A stretch of 60,664 bases of DNA, the filler included. It is 6 parts of 6 records of this genome, joined end to end, with 100 filler letters (N's around TTAATTAATTAA, not from the genome) between each part and the next. Parts side by side here need not be neighbours in the genome. Positions count along the whole stretch, not along the records: positions 26,122 to 37,990 come from SRR31156797_13728; 5 more parts are not named here. One strand, given 5' to 3'. Position 1 is the first letter of the stretch. Every line of letters starts with the position of its first letter. The notes under the pieces are model-generated. The model worked only from the letters and a program-made list of their open reading frames with translations, did not search any database and was not told where the DNA came from. Below, piece after piece: positions 26,122 to 37,990 of the stretch. Both the position numbers and the translations under genes were made by a program.

Positions 26122-26123
26122 GG

Positions 26124-26477
26124 AAATGGGTTTTGATCGGTGTCGGACTTGGAGCAATTCTTCACGGAGTTGTTCCTGAATCCTTTGTTGTTGAAAATCT
26201 AGGCAAAGGTCAGTGGTGGACAGTTCCAGCTGCAGTTTTCATTGGAATTCCACTTTATTCAAACGCTACGGGGATTATTCCAGTTGCTGAAAGCCTGCTT
26301 GCAAAAGGACTTCCTGTGGGAACTACTTTAGCTTTTATGATGAGTACAGTTGCCGCTTCGTTTCCTGAATTTATGCTGTTAAAACAGGTGATGAAAAAGG
26401 AACTCCTTTTTATATTTTTTGGAATGCTTCTGGTTCTTTTCACTTTTACAGGTTTAACACTTAACTATATTTTTTGA
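26124..26477 (+). CDS. ArsP/DUF318-type permease, C-terminal fragment
   Basis: GIPLYSNATGIIP, GTTLAFMMS, SFPE motifs; open to the contig edge; within an ars operon. Confidence 0.82.
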   Translation, partial: KWVLIGVGLGAILHGVVPESFVVENLGKGQWWTVPAAVFIGIPLYSNATGIIPVAESLLAKGLPVGTTLAFMMSTVAASFPEFMLLKQVMKKELLFIFFGMLLVLFTFTGLTLNYIF

Positions 26478-26486
26478 GGTAAAATC

Positions 26487-26726
26487 ATGAAGAAATTACA
26501 GATCTTAGGTGGCGGTTGCGCAAAGTGCGGAAAGCTTGCTGAAATTACAAAACTTGCGGCTACTGAACTTGGAATCGAGTTTGAAATTGAAAAGGTAACA
26601 GACATGGCGCGAATAATTGAGTTTGGAGTTATGACTACTCCTGCCCTAGTTGTTGATGGTGATATAAAGGTCAGCGGAAAAGTTCCGTCTCTTGCAGATA
26701 TTAAGAAACTCATTGGTGGAGGCTGA
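26487..26726 (+). CDS. Small thioredoxin-like redox protein (MTH895/ArsE-like)
   Basis: ILGGGCAKC, GVMTTPALVVDG. Confidence 0.88.
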   Translation: MKKLQILGGGCAKCGKLAEITKLAATELGIEFEIEKVTDMARIIEFGVMTTPALVVDGDIKVSGKVPSLADIKKLIGGG

Positions 26727-26727
26727 A

Positions 26728-27786
26728 ATGAGCAAACAAAAATCTGAAGGGATCAGCTTTTTTGAGAAATACCTTACTCTATGGGTCATTCTGTGTATGG
26801 CAATTGGAGTTTTAATAGGAAAATTTGCTCCCGCCATACCTGAACTTCTCGGACAATTCGAATATGCGCAGGTGTCAATTCCAATCGCTGTACTGATCTG
26901 GCTTATGATCTATCCAATGATGATGAAAGTCGATTTTGCAAGCATAAAAAACGTCGGTAGAAATCCAAAAGGACTTTTTATTACCTGGATAACTAACTGG
27001 CTGATAAAACCTTTCACAATGTATGCGATTGCATGGTTTTTCTTCTTTGTGGTGTTTAAAACATTAATTCCAGCTGATCTTGCAAAAGATTATCTTGCCG
27101 GAGCTATCCTGCTTGGTGCAGCTCCATGTACTGCGATGGTCTTTGTCTGGTCTCACCTCACAAAGGGAAATCCTGCTTACACTGTGGTTCAGGTCGCAAC
27201 CAATGATCTGATAATTCTTGCAGCTTTTACTCCAATAGTCGCTCTCCTTCTTGGAATAAGTGGAATAACCATACCCTGGAACACTCTTTTTCTTTCCGTA
27301 GTTCTCTTTGTCGTCATACCGCTTGCGGGAGGAATTATTACTAGAAAAACTGTAATAAAGAAAAAAGGCATTGAATATTTCAACACTAAATTCATCAGCA
27401 AATTCAACAATATAACTATTGGAGGACTGTTACTGACGCTTGTTATCATCTTTTCATTTCAAGGTCATGTTATCCTTGAAAATCCGCTTCATATCCTGCT
27501 TATTGCTATCCCGCTTACAATTCAGACTTTTTTCATTTTCTTTGTTGCATATTTCAGCTCTAAAAAGCTCAAACTGTGCCACAGCATTGCAGCTCCGGCA
27601 GGAATGATCGGCGCATCAAACTTTTTTGAACTTGCTGTTGCTGTGGCCATTGCTCTTTTCGGAACTACTTCACCCGTTGCACTTGCCACAATAGTTGGAG
27701 TTCTGGTTGAAGTTCCGGTAATGCTGACTCTTGTTAAAATTGCAAATAAAACTAAATACTGGTTTCCGAAGGAGGAAGTCAAATGA
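26728..27786 (+). CDS. acr3: Arsenite efflux transporter Acr3
   Basis: Start at ATG 26728 after [51 protein letters not shown]. Confidence 0.95.
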
Positions 27787-28226
27787 AAAAAAATGTAATA
27801 TTTATCTGCATACACAATTCGGCAAGAAGCCAGATGGCTGAAGCATATCTTAAACACTTCGCGTCCGACAAATTTGATGTATGGAGCGCAGGACTTGAAC
27901 CGGGAATACTCAATCCGGTCGTAATTAAGGCAATGGCTCAGGAAGGTATTAATATTTCCGGAAATTCGACAAACTCTGTGGATGAATTCATTGACGGGCA
28001 CATCAAATTTGATCTTGTTATTACAGTTTGTGATGAAACAGCGGCAGAGGCATGTCCAATATTTCCGGGACAGGGGAAAAGACTTCACTGGGGGTTTCAA
28101 GATCCATCAGGACTTAGCGGAACCGATGAGGAAAAGCTTGCTTCAACCGTAAAGATCAGAGATCAGATAAAGGAAAAAGTTCAAACATTTATTGCTAAAA
28201 CTATTAACGGAAAGGAACTAAGATGA
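27783..28226 (+). CDS. arsC: Arsenate reductase, LMW-PTP/thioredoxin-coupled type
   Basis: [13 protein letters not shown]-loop, TVCD...ACP, HWGFQDP. Confidence 0.92.
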
Positions 28227-28702
28227 AAAAAACTATTAATATCATTCTTGGACTTTTTGTTGCCGCAAGCATTGTCTATCTTGTAGTAACAGAGCTCAGA
28301 ACTCCTGAAACAAAACAGGAAAAAAAGACAGTTGAAAAGGAAGAAAAAAAACTAGAAGATGATAAACTAAACATCTATTATTTCCATGCTACAGCAAGAT
28401 GTAACAGCTGTATGAAAATTGAGAAGTTCACAAAAACTGCAGTTGAAACAGGATTTGAAAAAGAACTGACAAACAAAAAGATCGTCTTTAAACTTGTCAA
28501 CATCGATAAAGAAGAAAACAAACATTTCATTAACGATTTTCAGCTGTACACAAAATCAGTTATCGTTGAACAGATAAAGAACGGCAAGCAGAAAAAATGG
28601 GTCAATCTTGAAAAGGTCTGGGACCTGCTTGATAATGAAACTCAGTTTTCCCTCTACATTCAGGATGAAGTGAAAAAGAATCTTGATGAGGCAAAATTAT
28701 GA
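28223..28702 (+). CDS. Membrane-anchored thioredoxin-fold protein (ArsF-like)
   Basis: N-terminal TM; YYFHATARCNSC with CxxC; followed by an ArsG-like gene. Confidence 0.72.
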   Translation: MKKTINIILGLFVAASIVYLVVTELRTPETKQEKKTVEKEEKKLEDDKLNIYYFHATARCNSCMKIEKFTKTAVETGFEKELTNKKIVFKLVNIDKEENKHFINDFQLYTKSVIVEQIKNGKQKKWVNLEKVWDLLDNETQFSLYIQDEVKKNLDEAKL

Positions 28703-29373
28703 CCGGTTTCTTTCTTGCAACCTTTTCTGCTTTCTGGCTGGGAATACTGACATCGATCAGCCCCTGCCCGCTTGCTGCAAACATTGCCGCAGTTTCATAT
28801 ATTTCTAAAAAGCTTGAAAAGAAAAGTCTCATCTTAAGCTCACTGCTTTACACTGCCGGAAGAATGACCGCCTACTTTATCATCAGTATGATCATTGTTT
28901 CAGCTCTTGTCTCAATTCCTGCACTTTCTAACTTTCTTCAGTCATTTATGCCAAAGATCATCGGCCCGATCCTTATTGTTACGGGAATGTTTCTGCTTGA
29001 ACTTATCTCAATTGATATTCCCGGATTTAAAGGACTGTCAGAAGAAAAAAAGTTGGGATTTTTCGCGGAGTTTATGCTGGGATTTCTTCTTGCTCTATCT
29101 TTTTGTCCAGTTTCTGCAGCTCTCTTTTTCGGATCTTTGATCCCGCTTGCCGTATCAAATGAATCAAGAGTTATCCTGCCACTTTTTTATGGTATTGGAA
29201 CTGCGCTCCCTGTTGTTGCCTTTGCTATTTTACTTACGATCAGTGCTGAAAAGATGAGTCAGTGGTTTAACAAAGTTACAAGGGTTGAAAAGTGGGTGAG
29301 AAGAGTTTTTGGAGTTGTACTGATCTTAATTGGCTTTTTCTATACTTTGAGATTTGTTTTTAAAATTATTTAG
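28699..29373 (+). CDS. CcdA/DsbD-like membrane protein (ArsG-like)
   Basis: LGILTSISPCPLAANIAA and LSFCPVSAALFFG motifs; about 6 TM. Confidence 0.78.
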   Translation: MTGFFLATFSAFWLGILTSISPCPLAANIAAVSYISKKLEKKSLILSSLLYTAGRMTAYFIISMIIVSALVSIPALSNFLQSFMPKIIGPILIVTGMFLLELISIDIPGFKGLSEEKKLGFFAEFMLGFLLALSFCPVSAALFFGSLIPLAVSNESRVILPLFYGIGTALPVVAFAILLTISAEKMSQWFNKVTRVEKWVRRVFGVVLILIGFFYTLRFVFKII

Positions 29374-29395
29374 ACCCCAATATCCGAAAAACTGC

Positions 29396-29423
29396 TTGAC
29401 TATAGTTTCAACAACACTACAAT
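29396..29423 (+). promoter_or_regulatory. sigma70-type promoter upstream of the leader + metallothionein-like pair
   Basis: TTGACT-16 bp-TACAAT, 27 nt before the ATG at 29451. Confidence 0.6.
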
Positions 29424-29450
29424 TTATATGAGTAATTTACTGGGGATAAA

Positions 29451-29822
29451 ATGAAGCTCGCGATCCTGCTAATCATCTTTTCATTATTCAGCACAATTTT
29501 TGATGGTGGAGAACTTTGCTTTTCACATAATGGAGAGATTCATCTTAACTGTTGTTGCAAAACTGAGATCGCTATAAAAAAACCATGCTGTGGTTCAAAA
29601 TGCGTAGACGTTTCATTTCCATCAGTTGATGTTGCAGCAAGTCAAACAAGAGAAGATGATCAAATTCATTTTGAAATAGATCCGACTGTTCTATCCTATC
29701 ACCAGACAATCTGTGCTCTACCCACATTCTCAAAGAAAAAAGGTTTGGATAATAAGCACCGGTTTTCCGAGGATAGATCTTACCGTTCCCTAGTACTTTC
29801 AAAAACAATTTTTAGATGTTGA
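29451..29822 (+). CDS. Cys/His-cluster exported small protein, possible metal-responsive leader
   Basis: Signal-like N-terminus; LCFSHNGEIH, CCC, PCC..KCVD; hydrophobic C-terminal end SLVLSKTIFRC; GGGGA RBS. Confidence 0.6.
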   Translation: MKLAILLIIFSLFSTIFDGGELCFSHNGEIHLNCCCKTEIAIKKPCCGSKCVDVSFPSVDVAASQTREDDQIHFEIDPTVLSYHQTICALPTFSKKKGLDNKHRFSEDRSYRSLVLSKTIFRC

Positions 29823-29879
29823 GACTCAAGGTGTCAGCTTTATTTTATTTTTTATAAGTTAATTTATTTGGAGATTTTT

Positions 29880-30305
29880 ATGTTAAAAAAGATATTAGGT
29901 TTTTCATTGATGTTTGTGGCAGTTTCACTTCTCACAACAAGTTACGTTTCAGCCGGCGAGAAAAAAGACACAGTAAAAAAAGAGTGTAGTTGCAAATCCT
30001 GTGACTGCGGATGCAAAGAAGGAAAAAAATGCGAGTGCAAGAAAGGAAAAAAGTGTGACTGTAAGTCATGCGATAACTGCAAATGCGGCTGTAAAGATGG
30101 AAAGAAATGTGACTGCAAGTCCTGTGACAACTGCAAGTGCGGCTGTAAAGATGGAAAGAAATATGACTGCAAAAAAATGAAAAGTGGATGTGGATGCAAC
30201 GAAGGAAAGAAAGACTGTAAGTGTGATAAAAAGAAAAGCTGTGGTAAAAAGAAGAAACATTGCGGCGGCAAGAAGAAAAAACACTGTGGCGGACACAAAC
30301 ACTAG
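29880..30305 (+). CDS. Exported Cys/Lys-rich metallothionein-like protein
   Basis: ATG after GGAG; signal peptide ending VSA; 27 Cys mostly in CxC/CxxC; its internal repeat differs only at synonymous sites. Confidence 0.78.
   Translation: MLKKILGFSLMFVAVSLLTTSYVSAGEKKDTVKKECSCKSCDCGCKEGKKCECKKGKKCDCKSCDNCKCGCKDGKKCDCKSCDNCKCGCKDGKKYDCKKMKSGCGCNEGKKDCKCDKKKSCGKKKKHCGGKKKKHCGGHKH
30045..30152 (+). repeat. Two tandem 54-nt units, each encoding GKKCDCKSCDNCKCGCKD
   Basis: 30045-30098 vs 30099-30152: 7 nucleotide differences, all synonymous. Confidence 0.9.
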
Positions 30306-30358
30306 CCATCTCTAACAATTTATTCCAAAATATTTTCAACAACTTACACACTTTCTCC

Positions 30359-30387
30359 CTTGACTATACAAATCTCATGCATATAAA
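30359..30387 (+). promoter_or_regulatory. hsp20 promoter with overlapping HAIR-like operator
   Basis: TTGACT-16-TATAAA; CTTGACT-N7-TCTCATG resembles the HspR HAIR consensus CTTGAGT-N7-ACTCAAG. Confidence 0.45.
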
Positions 30388-30461
30388 AGATAGTGACGGC
30401 CGAAACGAGCATAACAGCTCGATATTATTAGTTATTATTTAGTTTTATACTGGAGGAGACC

Positions 30462-30902
30462 ATGAGATTAGTACGTTATCATGAACCAACAAAAAGTTCA
30501 CCAACACTTTTAAACAACTGGATGGACGATCTTTTCAGCGAATTCTTTGACAACAGCTTCAAAGGAGTTTCAAAACATCCGGGCTATCCACTTGTAGACA
30601 TTGAGGAAAGTGACACCGCTTATCATTTCAGAGTTGAGCTTCCAGGAGTTCCAAAAGAAAATGTCAGCATTGAGATCGAGAACAGACTGCTGACAATTAG
30701 CGGTGAGAAAAATGTAAAAAAAGAAGAAAATGAGAACAACTGCTTTAGAAAAGAAACTTTCAGCGGAACTTTCACTCGTTCGTTCACACTTCCTGACCAC
30801 GTTGAAACAGATCAGGCAAAAGCTAATTACGAAAACGGTGTTCTTGAATTGACAGTTCCCAAAAGCACTGAGAAAGCGAAAAAGAAGATCGAGATCAAGT
30901 AA
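30462..30902 (+). CDS. Small heat shock protein, Hsp20/alpha-crystallin family
   Basis: PLVDIEE, VELPGV, FTRSFTLP, ANYENGVLELTVPK, C-terminal IEI. Confidence 0.95.
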   Translation: MRLVRYHEPTKSSPTLLNNWMDDLFSEFFDNSFKGVSKHPGYPLVDIEESDTAYHFRVELPGVPKENVSIEIENRLLTISGEKNVKKEENENNCFRKETFSGTFTRSFTLPDHVETDQAKANYENGVLELTVPKSTEKAKKKIEIK

Positions 30903-30929
30903 AACCAACTCACTCATCTTTTTCTGATT

Positions 30930-30956
30930 AAGGCTCCCGAAAGGGGGCCTTTTTAT
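30930..30956 (+). terminator. Rho-independent terminator after hsp20
   Basis: AAGGCTCCC-GAAA-GGGGGCCTT followed by a T-run. Confidence 0.8.
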
Positions 30957-31150
30957 TAAAAATCACTTAAGCCACTTTAAAGAAAAGACTACCAAATTAT
31001 TATACATCGCTTTAATGTTAATCAAAGAACTTTGCAATATCTACAGTTAATTAACTAATACCACTTAAGTTTTTGAAAGAAATTGCATTTTATTCATGCT
31101 TCAGATATTATACATTGCGACCGGTAATCAAAACAACTTAGGGAGTAGCT

Positions 31151-34100
31151 ATGAGAGTTTTTAATGTATTCTTATTTATTTTTCTTCCTGTGAGCTTGTT
31201 CGGAGCAACTTATACTGTTACATCATCATCAGCATGCGGTGCAGGATCTTTTATGGAAGCAATAAGCAACGCTAATTCCAATCCGGGTACTGACCGTATT
31301 GAGTTTGCATCTGGACTGACTGAGATTATTGCAGATGGGTGCATGATGGCACCTCCTGATTTTGACGAGTTCTTTCTTGCAAAAATTACCGAGTCTGTTG
31401 ATATTATCGGAATAGACGATCTTGACCCGGGAACTCCGAAGAAAGATCGTTTACGCTTCATTGGACACAATCAATGGATATCAAAAAGCGGAACCTTGAA
31501 CCCTGATAGATGTCCATTGTCTTCAGATATATTTGTTAACCAGGTGGCAGGCTTGCTTGCAGTTGGTACATATGGAGCTGATAACAGCACTATCACTGTA
31601 AATATGAGTAATATCGATGTTGATGGTCTGACTGCATTGGCATTCATTAATAAATCAGCAACCCTCAATATTTCAGATGGTTCTTTTACAAATATGCTAT
31701 CCAGTCACAGAAGCTGTACACATAGCATTATTAATGTTAAAGATGGTGGAAAATTAGATATTGAGCGCACATACTTTTATCACAATAAAGTAATGGCTTC
31801 GTACGACATGCATTATATGTGGTTTGGTTTAATTACAGCAGGCGCAAACAGCTCCGTAACCATTCAGGATTCTGATTTTTTCAATAACCATACAGCGGGT
31901 TTTATATCACAAAGCGGTGGAACTCTGGATATTATAAATTCAAAAATTGATAATAGTGAAGGAATCGGTGCAACAAATACTGCTACTCGTATTGTAAATA
32001 CAGCTATTTACACACAGAACTTTGCTTACGGCAGTACTCATGACGGTGTGCATTTATATGGTGGAAGCATATTACTTGATGCAGTATCAATATATGTTCC
32101 AGCCTGGTCTCATGCTCACTCACCTGATGACTCTGCCGGCTATACATCAAATAATGTTCACTTCTCTGCAAGGGGTGGTGCTGTAGTCACAATAACAGAT
32201 TCTGCAATAGGTGCACTTGCTGCGTCATCAACTCTGCTACCTCTCTCCTATACAACTGGTGCTGGAAGTGTGTCAGTGACACGATCCTGGGTTAGGGATG
32301 GATCTTTGCCAGGTGCTGATGACACTATACCTGGACTGTCAGATACGATATTTTTCCTTGCGGATCTAATTCCTGATCATGATGGAGTACTGGTTGACGC
32401 ATCTGTTGGAACTCCACTCATAAATCCGGTAACCGGGTTTGAAATTACAACAGATGTACTGGGTAATCCAAGGTTAAGTGGAGCAACCAGAGATATCGGC
32501 GCAGTTGAAGTGGTTGGTTGTCTGGCGCATACAGACTGCTCTGCTCTTGATGATCAGTGTAGTACAGGATACTGCAATACTACTCTTGGCTACTGTATTA
32601 GAGAATTTTCTTCAAAAGATGGAGATTCTTGTGACGATGGACATTACTGTACTGAAAATGAAACCTGCGACAATGGCAGTTGTAAGGATGGAGCAGCAAG
32701 AGACTGTTCCAATCTTGACAATCAATGTAATTCTGGTATCTGCAATGAATTAACCGATCAATGCCACCAAGTACAAATTGCCGATGACACTCCCTGTGAT
32801 GACACTCTTTTCTGCACAGCTAACGACACTTGTCAGTCAGGAACGTGTACTGGAGGAGCTCAACCGGATTGTGATGACGGGAACGTCTGTACTGCTGATG
32901 TATGTGATGAAAATTCAAAAGCTTGTGAGAATCATGTTATTGCTGGTTGTAATACAAATGATGATGACATAATTACAAACGATATTGATGCTATGATGGA
33001 TAATGATCAGATAATGAGCGATGGTGACACAATAGTCTCTGATGAAGACACAGATCTTTCAATATCAGATGCAGATACTGTTGTTATGGATGATGATGAT
33101 TTAACAGATACAGATAATGTAATTCAGGACAATGAAGTAGTCAGTGATTTGGACCAAGATACAGTGATTGAAAATGATAATGATACGGAATCAAATGATA
33201 ATGATGAAAAAAATGATATGGATAGCATTTACCTTTTTGGTGGTGGATGCGGATGTTCGATAGTAGTTGAAGCTGAGAATGATTCTAAACATTCTATCAT
33301 GTTATTGTCAATTTTTGGGATTATTCTTTCTTTATATCTCGCATTAAAAAGCAGAAAAAAGAAAAGAGGGAAATTATTGGGTTTTTTGCTGCTTCTTATG
33401 GTGTTTTTTTTGCCGAAGCCATCTCATGCACAGATAAAAATTCCAGCAGACAACTTTAAACCATCTACATCTCCCTATAGTCTCTATATGACAGAAAGCG
33501 GCAAACTTCTTCCTCACCTTTCTTTCTCAGGAGGTTTAATATTTAACTATGACCACCATCCTCTCATAATGTGGGACAATGAAAACAATAAGGTTTCATC
33601 CATGCCTCTGGAGCATAGAGTAGATATGAATGTCTTAGCCGGATTCGGACTTTGGAACAGATTGGAACTTGGATTGGCACTTCCAGTTTCTCTTTACCAG
33701 AAATCAGATGATAAATCTATTGATCAGGGTATTTTGAATTCATCTGCCGGAACAGCAATGGGAGATTTGAGGTTCATAGCAAAGGTCAGACTTTTTACTG
33801 TCAAATCTTTCACAATGTCAGTTGCATTACCACTTTCATTTCCTACTGGGAACAGAGAGAATCTTACAGGTGAAGACGGGGTAACTTTTTCACCGAAGTT
33901 AATAGCCGGATTAAGCACATCATTTCTATCAGTTTTTCTAAATGCAGGGTTCTTAATTAGAAAAGATCAGAGTTTAAATCTTGGAACGGGACAGGGAAAA
34001 ATTGTTGTTGACGATGAATTTCTTTTAGCCGCCGGAACTTTGATTCCTGTTTGGAAAAAACACATAGATCTTTTTGCTGATTTCAACATGTCAATGGCAC

Positions 34101-34858
34101 TTAAAGAACAGGACAGTGAAGAACTGGGATTTGACCTTATCGGTGGAGCAAAATTTTATCTTCCACTTGGATTTCAGGCTAACATTGGTATTGGCCCTGG
34201 ACTTGGCAGAGGAATTGGAACACCCCAGTTCAGAGCAATTGCTGGAATTAGCTACACCTATACTCCTAAAAAGAAAAAACCGAAGAAAAAAACGGCTAAA
34301 GAACCTCCCAAAAAGAAAGAACCGTTAAAAACACCGAAAAAAATGGAAAAAACAGAAAAGAAACCTCAGAAAAAAGAAGCTCCTGAAAAAGATTCTGATA
34401 ATGACGGGATTCCTGATTCAGTCGACAAATGTAAAGATAAACCGGAAGTTTTTAATGGTATTGAAGATGAAGATGGATGTCCTGATAAAGCGGAAAAAGA
34501 AGTGCACATAAAAGAATCAATGATACATACTCCTGTTCTTCATTTTGATGTTGATAAAGATATTGAGGATTCGCAAAGTCATGAACATCTTCAGGAAGTT
34601 GTAAAATTGCTAAAAGACAACTTATGGATAAAGAAGCTAATAATTGAAGGATATGCTGACAGCATAGGCCCCTCTAAATATAACAAAGACCTTTCAATTA
34701 AAAGAGCGGAACATGTACGCAAATACCTGATAAAACATGGCATTAAAGCTTCAAGATTACAAATTAAAGGGTTTGGCGAAAAAGATGCTGCTGATACAAA
34801 TAAGACAGAAGAGGGAAGATACCGCAACAGAAGGGTTATTTTTCATATTATGAATTAA
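31151..34858 (+). CDS. Fused surface adhesin / OmpA-family beta-barrel protein (TraA+TraB-like architecture)
   Basis: Signal peptide; beta-helix-like domain ending TDVLGNPR..DIGAVE; Cys-rich repeats; Asp-rich linker; GGGCGC + TM + KSRKKKR; second signal peptide ending SHA|Q; barrel; TSP3-like repeat; OmpA C-terminal domain (IEGYADS...NRRV). Confidence 0.8.
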   Translation: MRVFNVFLFIFLPVSLFGATYTVTSSSACGAGSFMEAISNANSNPGTDRIEFASGLTEIIADGCMMAPPDFDEFFLAKITESVDIIGIDDLDPGTPKKDRLRFIGHNQWISKSGTLNPDRCPLSSDIFVNQVAGLLAVGTYGADNSTITVNMSNIDVDGLTALAFINKSATLNISDGSFTNMLSSHRSCTHSIINVKDGGKLDIERTYFYHNKVMASYDMHYMWFGLITAGANSSVTIQDSDFFNNHTAGFISQSGGTLDIINSKIDNSEGIGATNTATRIVNTAIYTQNFAYGSTHDGVHLYGGSILLDAVSIYVPAWSHAHSPDDSAGYTSNNVHFSARGGAVVTITDSAIGALAASSTLLPLSYTTGAGSVSVTRSWVRDGSLPGADDTIPGLSDTIFFLADLIPDHDGVLVDASVGTPLINPVTGFEITTDVLGNPRLSGATRDIGAVEVVGCLAHTDCSALDDQCSTGYCNTTLGYCIREFSSKDGDSCDDGHYCTENETCDNGSCKDGAARDCSNLDNQCNSGICNELTDQCHQVQIADDTPCDDTLFCTANDTCQSGTCTGGAQPDCDDGNVCTADVCDENSKACENHVIAGCNTNDDDIITNDIDAMMDNDQIMSDGDTIVSDEDTDLSISDADTVVMDDDDLTDTDNVIQDNEVVSDLDQDTVIENDNDTESNDNDEKNDMDSIYLFGGGCGCSIVVEAENDSKHSIMLLSIFGIILSLYLALKSRKKKRGKLLGFLLLLMVFFLPKPSHAQIKIPADNFKPSTSPYSLYMTESGKLLPHLSFSGGLIFNYDHHPLIMWDNENNKVSSMPLEHRVDMNVLAGFGLWNRLELGLALPVSLYQKSDDKSIDQGILNSSAGTAMGDLRFIAKVRLFTVKSFTMSVALPLSFPTGNRENLTGEDGVTFSPKLIAGLSTSFLSVFLNAGFLIRKDQSLNLGTGQGKIVVDDEFLLAAGTLIPVWKKHIDLFADFNMSMALKEQDSEELGFDLIGGAKFYLPLGFQANIGIGPGLGRGIGTPQFRAIAGISYTYTPKKKKPKKKTAKEPPKKKEPLKTPKKMEKTEKKPQKKEAPEKDSDNDGIPDSVDKCKDKPEVFNGIEDEDGCPDKAEKEVHIKESMIHTPVLHFDVDKDIEDSQSHEHLQEVVKLLKDNLWIKKLIIEGYADSIGPSKYNKDLSIKRAEHVRKYLIKHGIKASRLQIKGFGEKDAADTNKTEEGRYRNRRVIFHIMN

Positions 34859-34861
34859 GGA

Positions 34862-36568
34862 TCAGTCTCCCCAATTATCAGCCACATTAATCTTCAGCTC
34901 ATATCCGTCATCAGCATTCTTTGATGTGCAACTGATAGTCACATCTGGAGCGTTTAGAGACATTCCCGGCTTAAGTACCATATCTCTTTTATCTGGAACT
35001 TCACCCCAATCATAACTCAGATATGGCGATGGCGATGCATCAAGAAGCCAAGATGTATAGCCATCATTAAAAGTTACCATAACACCTTTTGTGTTCTCTT
35101 CAAGTTGAGCTGATTTCAAACCACTATCCCACTTGTTATCAGTGGTTCTTACCTCTAGAAAGTACCCATCATTGAGTCTATTCTCTCCAGACATTGAAAA
35201 GAATTCATCAACTTTATATGGCAGTCTGATCTCAACTGAATGCACCCCTTTTGTATTGCCTACAGGGTAGACTGCTACACTATGAACACCAGGAGTGGCT
35301 ATCGTCTTTTGAGTTGTATCATCATACCAACCTAGCATATCTCTGTAAGCTGTACAGACAGATGTTGCAAATTCGCCACTTCCCATCATTGAAAATTTAT
35401 CACCATACTCTTCATGGTGAAATTCATTGTCATCGTTCGGAGAATAAAGAGACACTCCATCAGCCAACGAACTGTCTGCATGAGTCTGAACGCCCATTGC
35501 ATGAATTAACTCATGAATAAAGGTTCTTTCAAATCTTGTCATATTATGATCAGGGTGATCAACGGTCACTTCCCCGCCTTCCACAATTTCATTCGGAACA
35601 AATACCGTACCCGTCTGTTTTTCAGTATATTCATTAAAAAGATCGTAGTCTGTATCACGGTGATTATAACCAATATGCATAGCCTGAACAGTTGAGTAGT
35701 AATTCATCACATCAGCATCGTTTATCCTGAAAGTCCACATACCGGTCAATCCACCGGGATTCCAGCTGTAGTCATCATAGGCTATGAACTGGATTGAGTC
35801 GTAATTTGCAGCATCAAACCCGAGAATCTGAATTGCAGAGCCTGTGTCCAAAAGATAATTTTCTGGATAATCGTCCTTTGCATAATCTCCCGAACTTACC
35901 AAATCTGCAATTGTTCTAGGATGGGTAAAAGGACCAAAAACATCACCTGTGAGCCTTGTAAATTTTCCGTAGCTCATATCTTTAAGGTATTCATTTATCA
36001 GGCTACTGCTATCAAAGAAAAGAGTCTCCAGATCACTGTTTGTTGGATACATCGCTCGAATATTCGGATCTGTATCAGAAAAATCAACAATTATGACAGC
36101 TATGTTGAACTTAGTAACAGGATCTTTAGATTCGCCCCCCTGTATTATACAGTCCAGATTACCATCTTTGTCATAATCCTTTTCAGGAAGATCACAGCCA
36201 CAGGTTCCTGCAGTAACCTTTCTTTTTTCATCAGGACACTCGTCATTACAGTCTGCAGTGCCGTCTCCATCAGTATCCACATCAGAAACTCCGCAGCCAC
36301 ATATTCCCGGTTCAGTCTTGTCCGGATCGTCAGGACATTTATCTGAAGGATCAACATCATTATCAACAGGCGTATTATCATCTGTTTCATTTATTTCATC
36401 AACGTCATCACCTTCCACTCCTCCGTCATTTTCCATGTCGGAGATCTCTTTATCATTGTCTGTTAAAAAGACGTCATCATCTGTCGACTCTTCTTTCTTT
36501 TCATTTCCACATGAAGTCAAAAAAAACAAGAAAGCAGTTAATAGAAAAACACTTCCGAACGCTCTCAT
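34862..36568 (-). CDS. Lipoprotein zinc metallopeptidase (M6/M11-like) with TSP3-like repeats
   Basis: Lipobox LTSC; Asp-rich linker; DKCPDDPDKTEPGICGCG/DTDGDG repeats; HELIHAMG and EYGDKFSMMG. Confidence 0.72.
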   Translation of the reverse strand: MRAFGSVFLLTAFLFFLTSCGNEKKEESTDDDVFLTDNDKEISDMENDGGVEGDDVDEINETDDNTPVDNDVDPSDKCPDDPDKTEPGICGCGVSDVDTDGDGTADCNDECPDEKRKVTAGTCGCDLPEKDYDKDGNLDCIIQGGESKDPVTKFNIAVIIVDFSDTDPNIRAMYPTNSDLETLFFDSSSLINEYLKDMSYGKFTRLTGDVFGPFTHPRTIADLVSSGDYAKDDYPENYLLDTGSAIQILGFDAANYDSIQFIAYDDYSWNPGGLTGMWTFRINDADVMNYYSTVQAMHIGYNHRDTDYDLFNEYTEKQTGTVFVPNEIVEGGEVTVDHPDHNMTRFERTFIHELIHAMGVQTHADSSLADGVSLYSPNDDNEFHHEEYGDKFSMMGSGEFATSVCTAYRDMLGWYDDTTQKTIATPGVHSVAVYPVGNTKGVHSVEIRLPYKVDEFFSMSGENRLNDGYFLEVRTTDNKWDSGLKSAQLEENTKGVMVTFNDGYTSWLLDASPSPYLSYDWGEVPDKRDMVLKPGMSLNAPDVTISCTSKNADDGYELKINVADNWGD

Positions 36569-36639
36569 TTATGCCTCCAATTTATCAAATACTATAAATA
36601 AATTATACCGTTGTTGAATTTTTTGGCAATTTTGAGAGA

Positions 36640-37650
36640 TTAATTATCAAGCACCTTCTTCACTGCGTTATAACCACGTAGAACAAGAATTTTCAGGTCA
36701 GGATCTAAACCCATGAGAGCTTTTTCCGCGTCCACATCAGTTGAAACGGGAACTTTTATTTCAATAACGGGACAGTTCATTTTTGGAGTGTGCATGATCT
36801 CATCTCCGGTAACATTTACAGCATAGATCACAGCAGGGCCAAAAAGTCTGCAAGCATCTTCAACAGGAGTTGCGCTCACTCTGTCAAAGCCGGGATCGAG
36901 ATTTTCAATTTTATTGATCGGTTCAGAGAAGATAAGCGGGTTGTTGATACTTCCTGAAACCGCGTAGGCGAGATTTCCGCTTTCAAGAACGTTAAGGGAT
37001 ATCCTTCCATCCTTTATCTTAAAAAATGAAGTCGCAAATGGAATTGTCGTCTCTTCGATCTTTATACTGTTATTAAGATCATCAAATTTCTTTCTGAAAA
37101 CATCATTCTTTAAGCCGAAAAGAAGCGCTTTCACCTGTGAAACAACTGAACTGTTCACAACTGAGTTTATCAGTTTTCTATATCTTGAAATCAGGTCCTG
37201 ATTTGGAGCGATAGCATATAGACTTCCCATCAGAGATCCCATGCTGTTGCCAAAAACTCCTTCAAACTTTATACCAGCCTCGTTAAATGCTCTGATCGCA
37301 CCAATATGTGCAAAACCTTTGTCCGCTCCAACTGAAAGAACGAGCACCTTTTTATTTGTGCATATTCCACCGATATCTCTAAATCCCTCATCACAGGAAC
37401 AGGTGAATTTTTCCTTATCAGCAGTGCAAACTGAACGGTTTTTGTCTTTGCATGGATTAGGCTCACAAGGATCAACTAGCTTAACAGGTTCAGGCTCAAC
37501 CACCTTCACCTCGACCTCTTCTTCCACCTTTTTTACAGGCTTATCCACCTTCTTCTCTTCCTTTTTCTCAACAGTTGAGCATGTCACAAGAAAAGAAACC
37601 GACAAAATCAAAACTAAAAACTTCACAACAAACCTCATATCAAACTCCAT
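36640..37650 (-). CDS. Patatin-like phospholipase lipoprotein with EGF-like domain
   Basis: Lipobox LVTC; DPCEPNPC..C..C.CDEGF..C; SVGADKGFAHIG, GNSMG nucleophile elbow, DPG. Confidence 0.72.
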   Translation of the reverse strand: MEFDMRFVVKFLVLILSVSFLVTCSTVEKKEEKKVDKPVKKVEEEVEVKVVEPEPVKLVDPCEPNPCKDKNRSVCTADKEKFTCSCDEGFRDIGGICTNKKVLVLSVGADKGFAHIGAIRAFNEAGIKFEGVFGNSMGSLMGSLYAIAPNQDLISRYRKLINSVVNSSVVSQVKALLFGLKNDVFRKKFDDLNNSIKIEETTIPFATSFFKIKDGRISLNVLESGNLAYAVSGSINNPLIFSEPINKIENLDPGFDRVSATPVEDACRLFGPAVIYAVNVTGDEIMHTPKMNCPVIEIKVPVSTDVDAEKALMGLDPDLKILVLRGYNAVKKVLDN

Positions 37651-37747
37651 CAGTCAAAAATCTTTTTTAGGTTAGCAGATTTGGGGAAAATTTAAAATGA
37701 TTGTTTAAGAATTAATTATATGAAAGAATGATACTTATGAAATATTT

Positions 37748-37990
37748 TTAGTCTTCTCCTTCGTCTCCCTCATCTCCTTCTTCACCATCTTCACCACCAT
37801 GCTCTTCTGTTCCTGATTCCGGATGAGCTACATACCATTCGAACACCTGACCCTCTGCAGAAAGTTCAATATCCATTTTTTCTCCAGCAGCAAGATCTTT
37901 TGGAATTGTGGGTCCTAGCTCAAGTCCATTTGATAAGTGAACTTCTACTCGAACTTTTTCTATTGTTTCTTCTGTATCATTTTCAACTGT
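37748..37990 (-). CDS. Hypothetical protein, C-terminal fragment with acidic tail
   Basis: Open frame from the contig edge: TVENDTEETIEKVRVEVHLSNGLELGPT...HPESGTEEHGGEDGEEGDEGDEGED*; not in the ORF track. Confidence 0.55.
   Translation of the reverse strand, partial: TVENDTEETIEKVRVEVHLSNGLELGPTIPKDLAAGEKMDIELSAEGQVFEWYVAHPESGTEEHGGEDGEEGDEGDEGED

What the first reader, a model, noticed from the sequence alone, without database searches (positions are those of the whole stretch)
31151..34858. TraA+TraB-like contact/kin-recognition protein encoded as one polyprotein in an AT-rich bacterium
Seen, in one uninterrupted frame: signal peptide; large beta-helix-like head (to ~32510); Cys-rich repeats (32519-32950, e.g. 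CDDGNVCTADVC); Asp-rich stalk; sorting-tag-like GGGCGCS (33239-33259) + TM + KSRKKKR; then a second signal peptide, a predicted OM beta-barrel (~33431-34263), a Lys/Pro linker, a TSP3-like repeat (DSDNDGIPD..C..PE.FNG.EDEDGCPD) and an OmpA peptidoglycan-binding domain. Known: in Myxococcus, TraA (variable head, Cys-rich stalk, MYXO-CTERM) and TraB (barrel, TSP3, OmpA) mediate self-recognition and outer membrane exchange; I recall fused forms in some myxobacteria. Inference: an analogous adhesion or recognition module in an AT-rich lineage unlike the GC-rich myxobacteria, with a different head replacing the PA14-like domain.
Basis: partly seen in the sequence, partly recalled or inferred. Interest (0 to 1): 0.82.

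Follow-up and report, generated by a model that had tools for sequence, protein, structure and literature searches.

The report
Beta-helix adhesin fused to membrane anchor
One gene of an unidentified low-GC bacterium encodes a predicted surface adhesin and a predicted outer-membrane, cell-wall-binding anchor in a single chain that is likely cut into two partner proteins; this layout is widespread and already noted in print for Myxococcus, and nothing here shows kin recognition.

Summary
The C-terminal half is TraB-like: NF033763 covers it end to end, at 193 bits against a cut-off of 700. Its model is a 12-strand FapF-like barrel plus OmpA. The fusion is no accident: 85 of the best 150 hits share the joint of Cys tag, helix, basic loop, second signal peptide and barrel. 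AgmC-type proteins are among them. The layout is in print for MXAN_5598 (PMC11980579), and this scan found it before on other DNA. The front half shows no TraA hallmark. Its head is a beta-helix, 55-58% identical to heads of barrel-less secreted proteins. Best reading: a two-cut polyprotein yielding a lipid-anchored adhesin and a wall-anchored barrel. The cuts are untested; kin recognition and membrane exchange are unsupported; the host is unidentified. New detail: the same head family also sits on IPTL-CTERM and internal GlyGly-CTERM/barrel proteins. Verdict: new member of a known kind.

The parts
31151..34858 (+). Single ORF, 1235 aa (P0001), likely monocistronic
   Evidence: terminator-like hairpin 30930-30951 after the upstream hsp20; the next gene is convergent and ends at 34862
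31151..31204 (+). First signal peptide (residues 1-18, predicted cut LFG|AT)
   Evidence: hydropathy; head homologues align from the mature start
31205..32515 (+). Head: predicted right-handed parallel beta-helix ending in a choice-of-anchor-Q-like motif; variable long loops
   Evidence: AF2 pLDDT 74.9; VIA Z 25.0 PfbA, 24.9 Vag8, 24.1 AlgE4; NF041518 18.7-20 bits, cut-off 25; 55-58% identity to P0162-P0165 and the L005 protein
32516..32950 (+). Cys-rich repeats (22 Cys; CDD-type, Dictyostelium-repeat-like), likely a disulfide-stiffened stalk
   Evidence: weak PF00526 E 0.064; matches 3 of 85 fused relatives, P0066, P0090, P0142
32951..33235 (+). Acidic low-complexity spacer (35 of 95 residues D/E)
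33239..33259 (+). Cys tag GGGCGCS (GCGC as in MYXO-CTERM); predicted lipidation and first cut
   Evidence: sequence; PMC11980579 Fig. 7 legend names a generic GCGC motif; no TIGR03901 hit for this copy; own tag profile 7.2 bits, above 500 of 500 shuffles
33290..33346 (+). Membrane helix 1 (residues about 714-732)
   Evidence: hydropathy 2.11 over 19 residues
33347..33373 (+). Basic loop KSRKKKRGK; predicted cytoplasmic, serving as tag tail and as n-region of the second signal
   Evidence: sequence; median 3 K/R in 6 residues among 83 relatives
33374..33430 (+). Second signal peptide (h-region LLGFLLLLMVFF, predicted signal peptidase I site SHA|Q); in-frame TTG at 33377 behind an SD-like AGAGGG at 33365-33370
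   Evidence: small-x-Ala site after helix 2 in 75 of 83 fused relatives, after helix 1 in 15 of 83, in stand-alone barrels 40 of 47
33431..34261 (+). TraB-like outer-membrane barrel, predicted 12 strands, FapF/COG4313 fold
   Evidence: NF033763 E 1e-25 on this part; AF2 pLDDT 91 for the half; Foldseek FapF E 1e-10, COG4313 channel E 2e-9
34274..34384 (+). Lys/Pro-rich linker
   Evidence: 24 of 37 residues K or P; low pLDDT
34385..34495 (+). Thrombospondin type 3 repeat unit
   Evidence: PF02412 27 bits, cut-off 25
34538..34855 (+). OmpA-type peptidoglycan-binding domain, with Asp1170 and Arg1185 fifteen apart
   Evidence: PF00691 E 5e-20; residues read; their role in binding the wall peptide is recalled knowledge

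Best explanation
The gene encodes one chain with two export signals and an internal cysteine tag, and this chain is likely cut twice into a lipid-anchored surface adhesin with a predicted beta-helix head and a TraB-like outer-membrane barrel predicted to hold on to the cell wall. Steps: (1) the first signal exports head and stalk, and helix 1 stops transfer (inferred from sequence). (2) The basic loop stays in the cytoplasm and helix 2 acts as a second Sec signal; signal peptidase I cuts at SHA|Q and frees barrel-TSP3-OmpA for outer-membrane insertion (inferred; the site is conserved). (3) The tag Cys is lipidated, a myxosortase-type protease cuts behind it and type II secretion moves the adhesin out (by analogy with TraA, shown only in M. 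xanthus). (4) The adhesin likely docks on its barrel, which ties it to peptidoglycan; the single gene fixes a 1:1 supply (inferred). The head most likely binds a foreign ligand, such as a glycan or another cell's surface, through variable loops along the beta-helix groove, and is an exchangeable module. It works like the mechanical part of TraA/TraB and belongs with the MXAN_5598/AgmC-type fusions, not with TraAB itself.
For: Joint conserved in 85 of the best 150 hits (80 by script, 5 by eye), at no more than about 44% identity over joint and barrel. Peptidase site after helix 2 in 75 of 83 against 15 of 83 after helix 1. Four of 14 relatives tested pass a MYXO-CTERM cut-off at the joint: P0015, P0052, P0149 for TIGR03901, P0087 for TIGR03382. 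An uncut chain would thread an outer-membrane barrel behind two inner-membrane helices (sequence logic). Barrel model confident, FapF-like. Front parts are swapped freely: 48 long ones fall into 24 clusters, and 0 of 85 match this head. The head recurs at 55-58% on barrel-less secreted proteins. Its top fold matches include the adhesins PfbA and Vag8. Candidate groove positions vary among six heads and show no shared acidic pair. Same layout proposed to be processed for MXAN_5598 (PMC11980579 Discussion).
Against: No cut has been observed for this or, in the passages read, any fused member. This tag does not hit TIGR03901 and scores only 7.2 bits on a profile from 51 relatives. None of the contig's main ORFs hit a CPBP protease family, and the genome is not held, so the processing enzyme and type II secretion are unverified. 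The 85 of 150 is inflated because the query held the joint. Polysaccharide lyases and epimerases tie with the adhesins in the fold search, so an enzyme head is not excluded. A 95-residue acidic spacer lies between the Cys repeats and the tag, so TraA-style docking on the barrel is a guess. The strongest SD-like site of 52 in-frame starts sits in the joint.
Confidence: 0.68

Rival explanations
1. It is a true TraAB analogue: heads bind like heads on kin cells, and the wall-anchored barrel pulls on the outer membranes to allow exchange.
For: Same order of parts as traA-traB, with Cys-rich stalk, GCGC tag, barrel, TSP3 and OmpA. Head loops vary more than the rest: 18 of 72 loop positions invariant against 196 of 437 overall, and among five relatives heads (69-87%) differ more than stalks (79-88%) in 8 of 10 pairs.
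Against: No PA14 head, no TIGR04201 hit, TraB score 193 of 700. The close heads sit on proteins with no barrel, so the head does not need one. A forward screen suggests TraAB are the only dedicated exchange proteins of M. xanthus (PMC12045341 passage), although that species has such a fusion too. No alleles from the same lineage were found.
Confidence: 0.12
2. The head is a surface-held polysaccharide lyase or epimerase, and the barrel anchors it or takes up its products.
For: Foldseek's best hits are AlgE4, PL6 lyases and RbmB (E 1e-4 to 8e-4); VIA Z 24.5 and 24.1 for alginate enzymes. The barrel fold matches the COG4313 channel. His283 is invariant among six heads.
Against: Identities 8-16% only; adhesins tie for first place. 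Outward groove positions differ among heads that are 55-87% alike, unlike a conserved active site. Most fused relatives scanned carry Ig, TSP3-type or Cys repeats.
Confidence: 0.12
3. The barrel half is made, wholly or in part, from an internal start at TTG-743, so the two halves behave as coupled genes, as traA and traB do.
For: The best anti-SD pairing of 52 in-frame start codons (-6.3 kcal/mol, the gene's own start -6.6) lies before TTG-743, at the head of the second signal. traA and traB overlap by four bases (PMC3325183).
Against: Lys, Arg and Gly codons give purine runs in any case. The product would lack basic residues before its h-region. Relatives show no Met excess there, 25 of 996 against 20 of 996 in helix 1. 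The frame has no stop, so the long chain would still be made and need a cut.
Confidence: 0.06
4. The fusion is an assembly error or a recent loss of a stop codon without meaning.
For: Depth is low (about 6.9) and only one sample holds the DNA.
Against: A second assembly spans the joint with 0 differences; 85 of 150 distant relatives keep the same in-frame joint.
Confidence: 0.02

Closest known systems
MXAN_5598 of Myxococcus xanthus (PMC11980579, Discussion passage)
   Same: Adhesin region, internal MYXO-CTERM, outer-membrane barrel and OmpA in one ORF; likened by the authors to TraA plus TraB; N-part proposed to be processed and surface-anchored.
   Different: Here the head is a beta-helix on a Cys-rich and acidic stalk, the tag is diverged and Lys-rich, and the neighbours are an arsenic-resistance-type cluster and hsp20, not ftsA/ftsZ. 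The passage read does not mention the second signal peptide. The MXAN_5598 sequence was not on hand, so no direct alignment was made.
AgmC-type proteins (NCBIfam NF047640; P0041, P0043, P0044)
   Same: Same joint and a homologous barrel-TSP3-OmpA half.
   Different: No AgmC N-domain here; the barrels fall on opposite sides of a well-supported branch.
TraA/TraB (PMC3325183, PMC6372800, PMC12045341; NF033763)
   Same: Order of parts; homologous barrel, TSP3 and OmpA; Cys-rich stalk; GCGC-type tag.
   Different: One ORF, not two; beta-helix, not PA14-like; different Cys repeat with 22 Cys against more than 70; TraB score far below cut-off; no functional data.
Parallel beta-helix adhesins and glycan enzymes (PfbA 3zpp, Vag8 7akv, AlgE4 2pyg, rhombotarget A 9cdu)
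   Same: Fold of the head, Z 22-25.
   Different: 12-16% identity; function cannot be carried over.
FapF / COG4313 12-stranded barrels
   Same: Fold of the barrel, TM 0.70-0.73 to the target.
   Different: 13-14% identity; followed here by TSP3 and OmpA.

Membership tests
Internal-CTERM adhesin-barrel-OmpA fusions (MXAN_5598/AgmC type) | Adhesin region, internal Cys tag with helix and basic tail, then barrel and OmpA in one ORF | tested here: met
Internal-CTERM adhesin-barrel-OmpA fusions (MXAN_5598/AgmC type) | Barrel homologous to that of the known fused members | tested here: met
   AgmC-domain proteins P0041, P0043, P0044 found by joint plus barrel at E 3e-31 to 6e-31
Internal-CTERM adhesin-barrel-OmpA fusions (MXAN_5598/AgmC type) | Processing at the tag and at the second signal | not testable with these tools
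   only conservation of the sites
AgmC proper (NF047640) | AgmC N-terminal domain at 275 bits or more | tested here: not met
   no hit for residues 1-743 at E up to 10
TraB (NF033763) | Barrel, TSP3 and OmpA architecture | tested here: met
   profile positions 18-498 of 522 matched
TraB (NF033763) | Score at or above the curated cut-off of 700 bits | tested here: not met
   193.5 bits; none of the 32 relatives or the 48 passes, best 315
TraA | PA14-like variable domain | tested here: not met
   head models as a parallel beta-helix; no PA14 hit
TraA | TIGR04201 cysteine repeats | tested here: not met
   model is in the library; no hit for the Cys-rich part at E up to 10, though HMMER filters drop weak hits
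TraA | Allele-specific homotypic binding and outer membrane exchange | not testable with these tools
   needs experiments
MYXO-CTERM (TIGR03901/TIGR03382) | Cys motif, membrane helix, basic cluster | tested here: met
   GGGCGCS, helix 714-732, KSRKKKR
MYXO-CTERM (TIGR03901/TIGR03382) | HMM score above cut-off | tested here: not met
   no hit; 4 of 14 relatives pass at the same place
MYXO-CTERM (TIGR03901/TIGR03382) | Myxosortase and type II secretion in the host; host in Myxococcota or Bradymonadales | not testable with these tools
   no genome held; none among the contig's scanned ORFs

The most novel reading that the evidence does not exclude
The beta-helix head is a new polymorphic recognition domain, with variable groove loops, that bacteria plug into three unrelated sorting systems (MYXO-CTERM-like tag with TraB-like barrel here, IPTL-CTERM in P0163, internal GlyGly-CTERM with an OmpA-type barrel in P0167). 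In this low-GC host it drives TraAB-style self recognition and outer membrane exchange from a single polyprotein, outside the classical myxobacteria.
Probability: 0.08. Interest if true: 0.8.

Novelty: new member of a known kind. Interest (0 to 1): 0.3.

Why it matters
The family is under-studied: bacterial polyproteins that are cut into an adhesin and its own barrel anchor have one paragraph in the papers I found, and their processing is untested. This copy is compact (1235 aa, against up to 4861 in relatives), so it is a handy test substrate for the two-cut model. It also shows that the barrel-anchor cassette takes unrelated heads, and that one head family moves between sorting systems. It does not change what is known about kin recognition unless exchange is shown.

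Tried and rejected
Head homodimer prediction: no answer, score 0.00, not counted either way. Close full-length relatives: word search with the barrel among 679-2162-aa proteins found none, a sensitivity miss shown up; none of 10 contig proteins is in the collection exactly. Genome scan with the barrel gave one weak Clostridium match, judged spurious. No barrel relatives in viral contigs by one pattern or in 50,697 phage records. No RNA holder listed. Host taxonomy stayed open: no genome held; Atlas rows for the joint and barrel are mostly Myxococcota but score 0.87, leads only; named barrel relatives are Corallococcus, 'Proteobacteria bacterium' and 'Deltaproteobacteria bacterium'. Recent import of the head from a 50%-GC donor: rejected, its GC3 (0.28) matches the rest of the gene (0.22-0.30). 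Promoter scan at chance level, 12 against 13.4. Literature on AgmC: none found, so its phenotype and its identity with MXAN_5598 are not established here. Whether the library holds a whole-protein TraA model was not established (one search named another family). The many fused/stand-alone switches on the tree were not used as proof of repeated fusion, because some stand-alone rows look like mis-called starts.
Full report
Observation. The frame 31151-34858 is open for 1235 codons. The window is a string of separate contigs; this one runs 26122-37990 and is low in GC. All listed elements are present at the stated places. A terminator-like hairpin closes the upstream hsp20 and the next gene is convergent, so the gene is likely on its own. 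Its neighbours are an arsenic-resistance-type cluster, hsp20, a lipoprotein and a patatin.

The rear half. NF033763 (TraB) matches residues 762-1234 at 193.5 bits, cut-off 700. The barrel alone gives 89.6 bits, so the likeness is not due to OmpA only. AF2 on 74 sequences gives pLDDT 91 and twelve long strands; Foldseek returns FapF and the COG4313 channel, then OmpA C-domains. None of the 32 relatives or the 48 reaches the cut-off (best 315). This is the wider TraB-like family, not TraB proper.

The joint. A search with joint plus barrel found 3218 proteins at E up to 0.001. Of the best 150, 80 show Cys motif, helix, basic residues and second helix by script and 5 more by eye; 63 start near or inside the barrel and 2 have long leaders. 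The query held the joint, so fused forms are favoured, and 2 of the 85 (P0069, P0107) gave no joint in the stricter script and were left out of later counts. A small-x-Ala site follows helix 2 in 75 of 83, helix 1 in 15 of 83, and the signal of stand-alone barrels in 40 of 47. Four of 14 relatives pass a MYXO-CTERM cut-off at this place; our copy does not. It scores 7.2 bits on a profile of 51 more distant relatives, above all 500 shuffles: a weak, diverged, Lys-rich tag that keeps the GCGC core. One oddity: the best SD-like site of 52 in-frame starts lies before TTG-743. Purine-rich codons can explain it, and relatives show no Met excess there.

The front half. The head models as a right-handed beta-helix (pLDDT 74.9 from 7 sequences). 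Best VIA matches tie between adhesins and glycan enzymes: PfbA Z 25.0 (312 aligned, rmsd 3.7), Vag8 24.9, alginate epimerase/lyase 24.5, AlgE4 24.1. None of the 85 fused relatives has this head; 3 share the Cys repeats; 48 long front parts fall into 24 clusters. The head's closest relatives (55-58%) are secreted proteins with tandem-95/Ig and FN3 stalks and no barrel; P0163 ends in IPTL-CTERM. A more distant one, P0167 (31% over about half the head), has Ig repeats, an internal GlyGly-CTERM above cut-off, a second hydrophobic segment and an OMP_b-brl barrel above cut-off: the same two-part design built from other parts. Among six close heads, 17 of the 42 most variable positions lie in five long loops that hold 72 of 437 positions. 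I picked these loops after seeing the variation. Four of them recur at the same point of the coil in the model's strand pattern, which I infer to flank the groove. This fits a binding surface with shifting specificity, whether for self or for foreign ligands.

Mechanism. The reading that fits topology and conservation is a two-cut precursor. Signal peptidase I frees the barrel half at SHA|Q. A myxosortase-type enzyme cuts behind a lipidated Cys and leaves a surface adhesin, as shown for TraA and proposed for lipidation in PMC11980579. Shown here: parts, order, conservation of both sites. Inferred: both cuts, the routes, docking of adhesin on barrel, and the ligand. Rivals are TraAB-style exchange (0.12), an enzyme head (0.12), internal initiation (0.06) and artefact (0.02).

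What is known. PMC11980579 (I read the abstract, introduction, part of the reference list, passages of Results and Discussion, and searched its one held supplement) describes MXAN_5598 with this layout and likens it to TraA plus TraB. PMC4158809 lists MXAN_5598 among proteins of vesicle fractions (one passage). TraAB features come from passages of PMC6372800, PMC3325183 and PMC12045341. The myxosortase preprint 10.1101/2023.06.07.544157 extends the tag to Bradymonadales and has no 'internal' or 'OmpA' in its main text (passages; its supplements are closed and might list such proteins). Searches for MXAN_5598, MYXO-CTERM, AgmC and internal GlyGly-CTERM with barrel and a look into PMC3237569 gave no test of processing and no mention of the second signal; most subscription papers are not in the library. 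AgmC-type proteins carry the same joint but lie across a strongly supported branch from this barrel (147 rows, 4 short ones left out, quick method, uneven composition). Earlier notes of this scan report the design in at least 9 genomes and the GlyGly version too; none matched this sequence.

Verdict. It is a new member of a known, widespread, little-tested kind, with a new head. Kin recognition is unsupported, and the claim of a non-myxobacterial host is untested. Interest 0.3.

Noticed in passing
P0167 (protein only), residues about 1310-1518: Relative of the head that carries an internal GlyGly-CTERM (18.1 bits, cut-off 15.5), a basic RKR, a second hydrophobic segment and an OMP_b-brl barrel (32.7 bits, cut-off 28.7): a parallel polyprotein design.
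   Followed up: partly
window 29868-30305 (+): About 144-aa ORF with a signal-like start and dense Cys/Lys repeats (CKSCDCGCKEGKKC type), no Pfam hit, right behind the arsenic-type cluster; looks like an exported metallothionein-like protein.
   Followed up: no
window 26133-29822 (+): Arsenic-resistance-type cluster: ArsP permease, thioredoxin-like, SBF/Acr3-like transporter, LMW phosphatase/ArsC-like, a 159-aa ORF without Pfam hit, a DsbD_2 membrane protein.
   Followed up: partly
window 34862-36568 (-): 568-aa lipoprotein-like ORF with an acidic linker, TSP3-like repeats and an HELIH zinc-protease-like motif; unnamed family with a 79% relative P0168 and eight at 51-56%.
   Followed up: partly
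window 36640-37650 (-): Lipoprotein-like patatin with an EGF-like repeat before the catalytic domain.
   Followed up: no
P0016, P0023, P0026, P0033, P0034, P0035, P0039, P0042 and kin (proteins only): A branch of fused relatives with short front parts and a short tail of about 145 residues, several of AT-rich make-up; may be the phage-borne form of note e1-5410905, not checked.
   Followed up: no
window 33365-33379 (+): SD-like AGAGGG six bases before in-frame TTG-743 at the start of the second signal, the strongest of 52 in-frame starts.
   Followed up: partly
whole window: The window joins six contigs of clearly different organisms (N gaps near 9.4, 26.0, 38.0, 44.2 and 52.7 kb), so genes outside 26122-37990 say nothing about this host.
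   Followed up: yes
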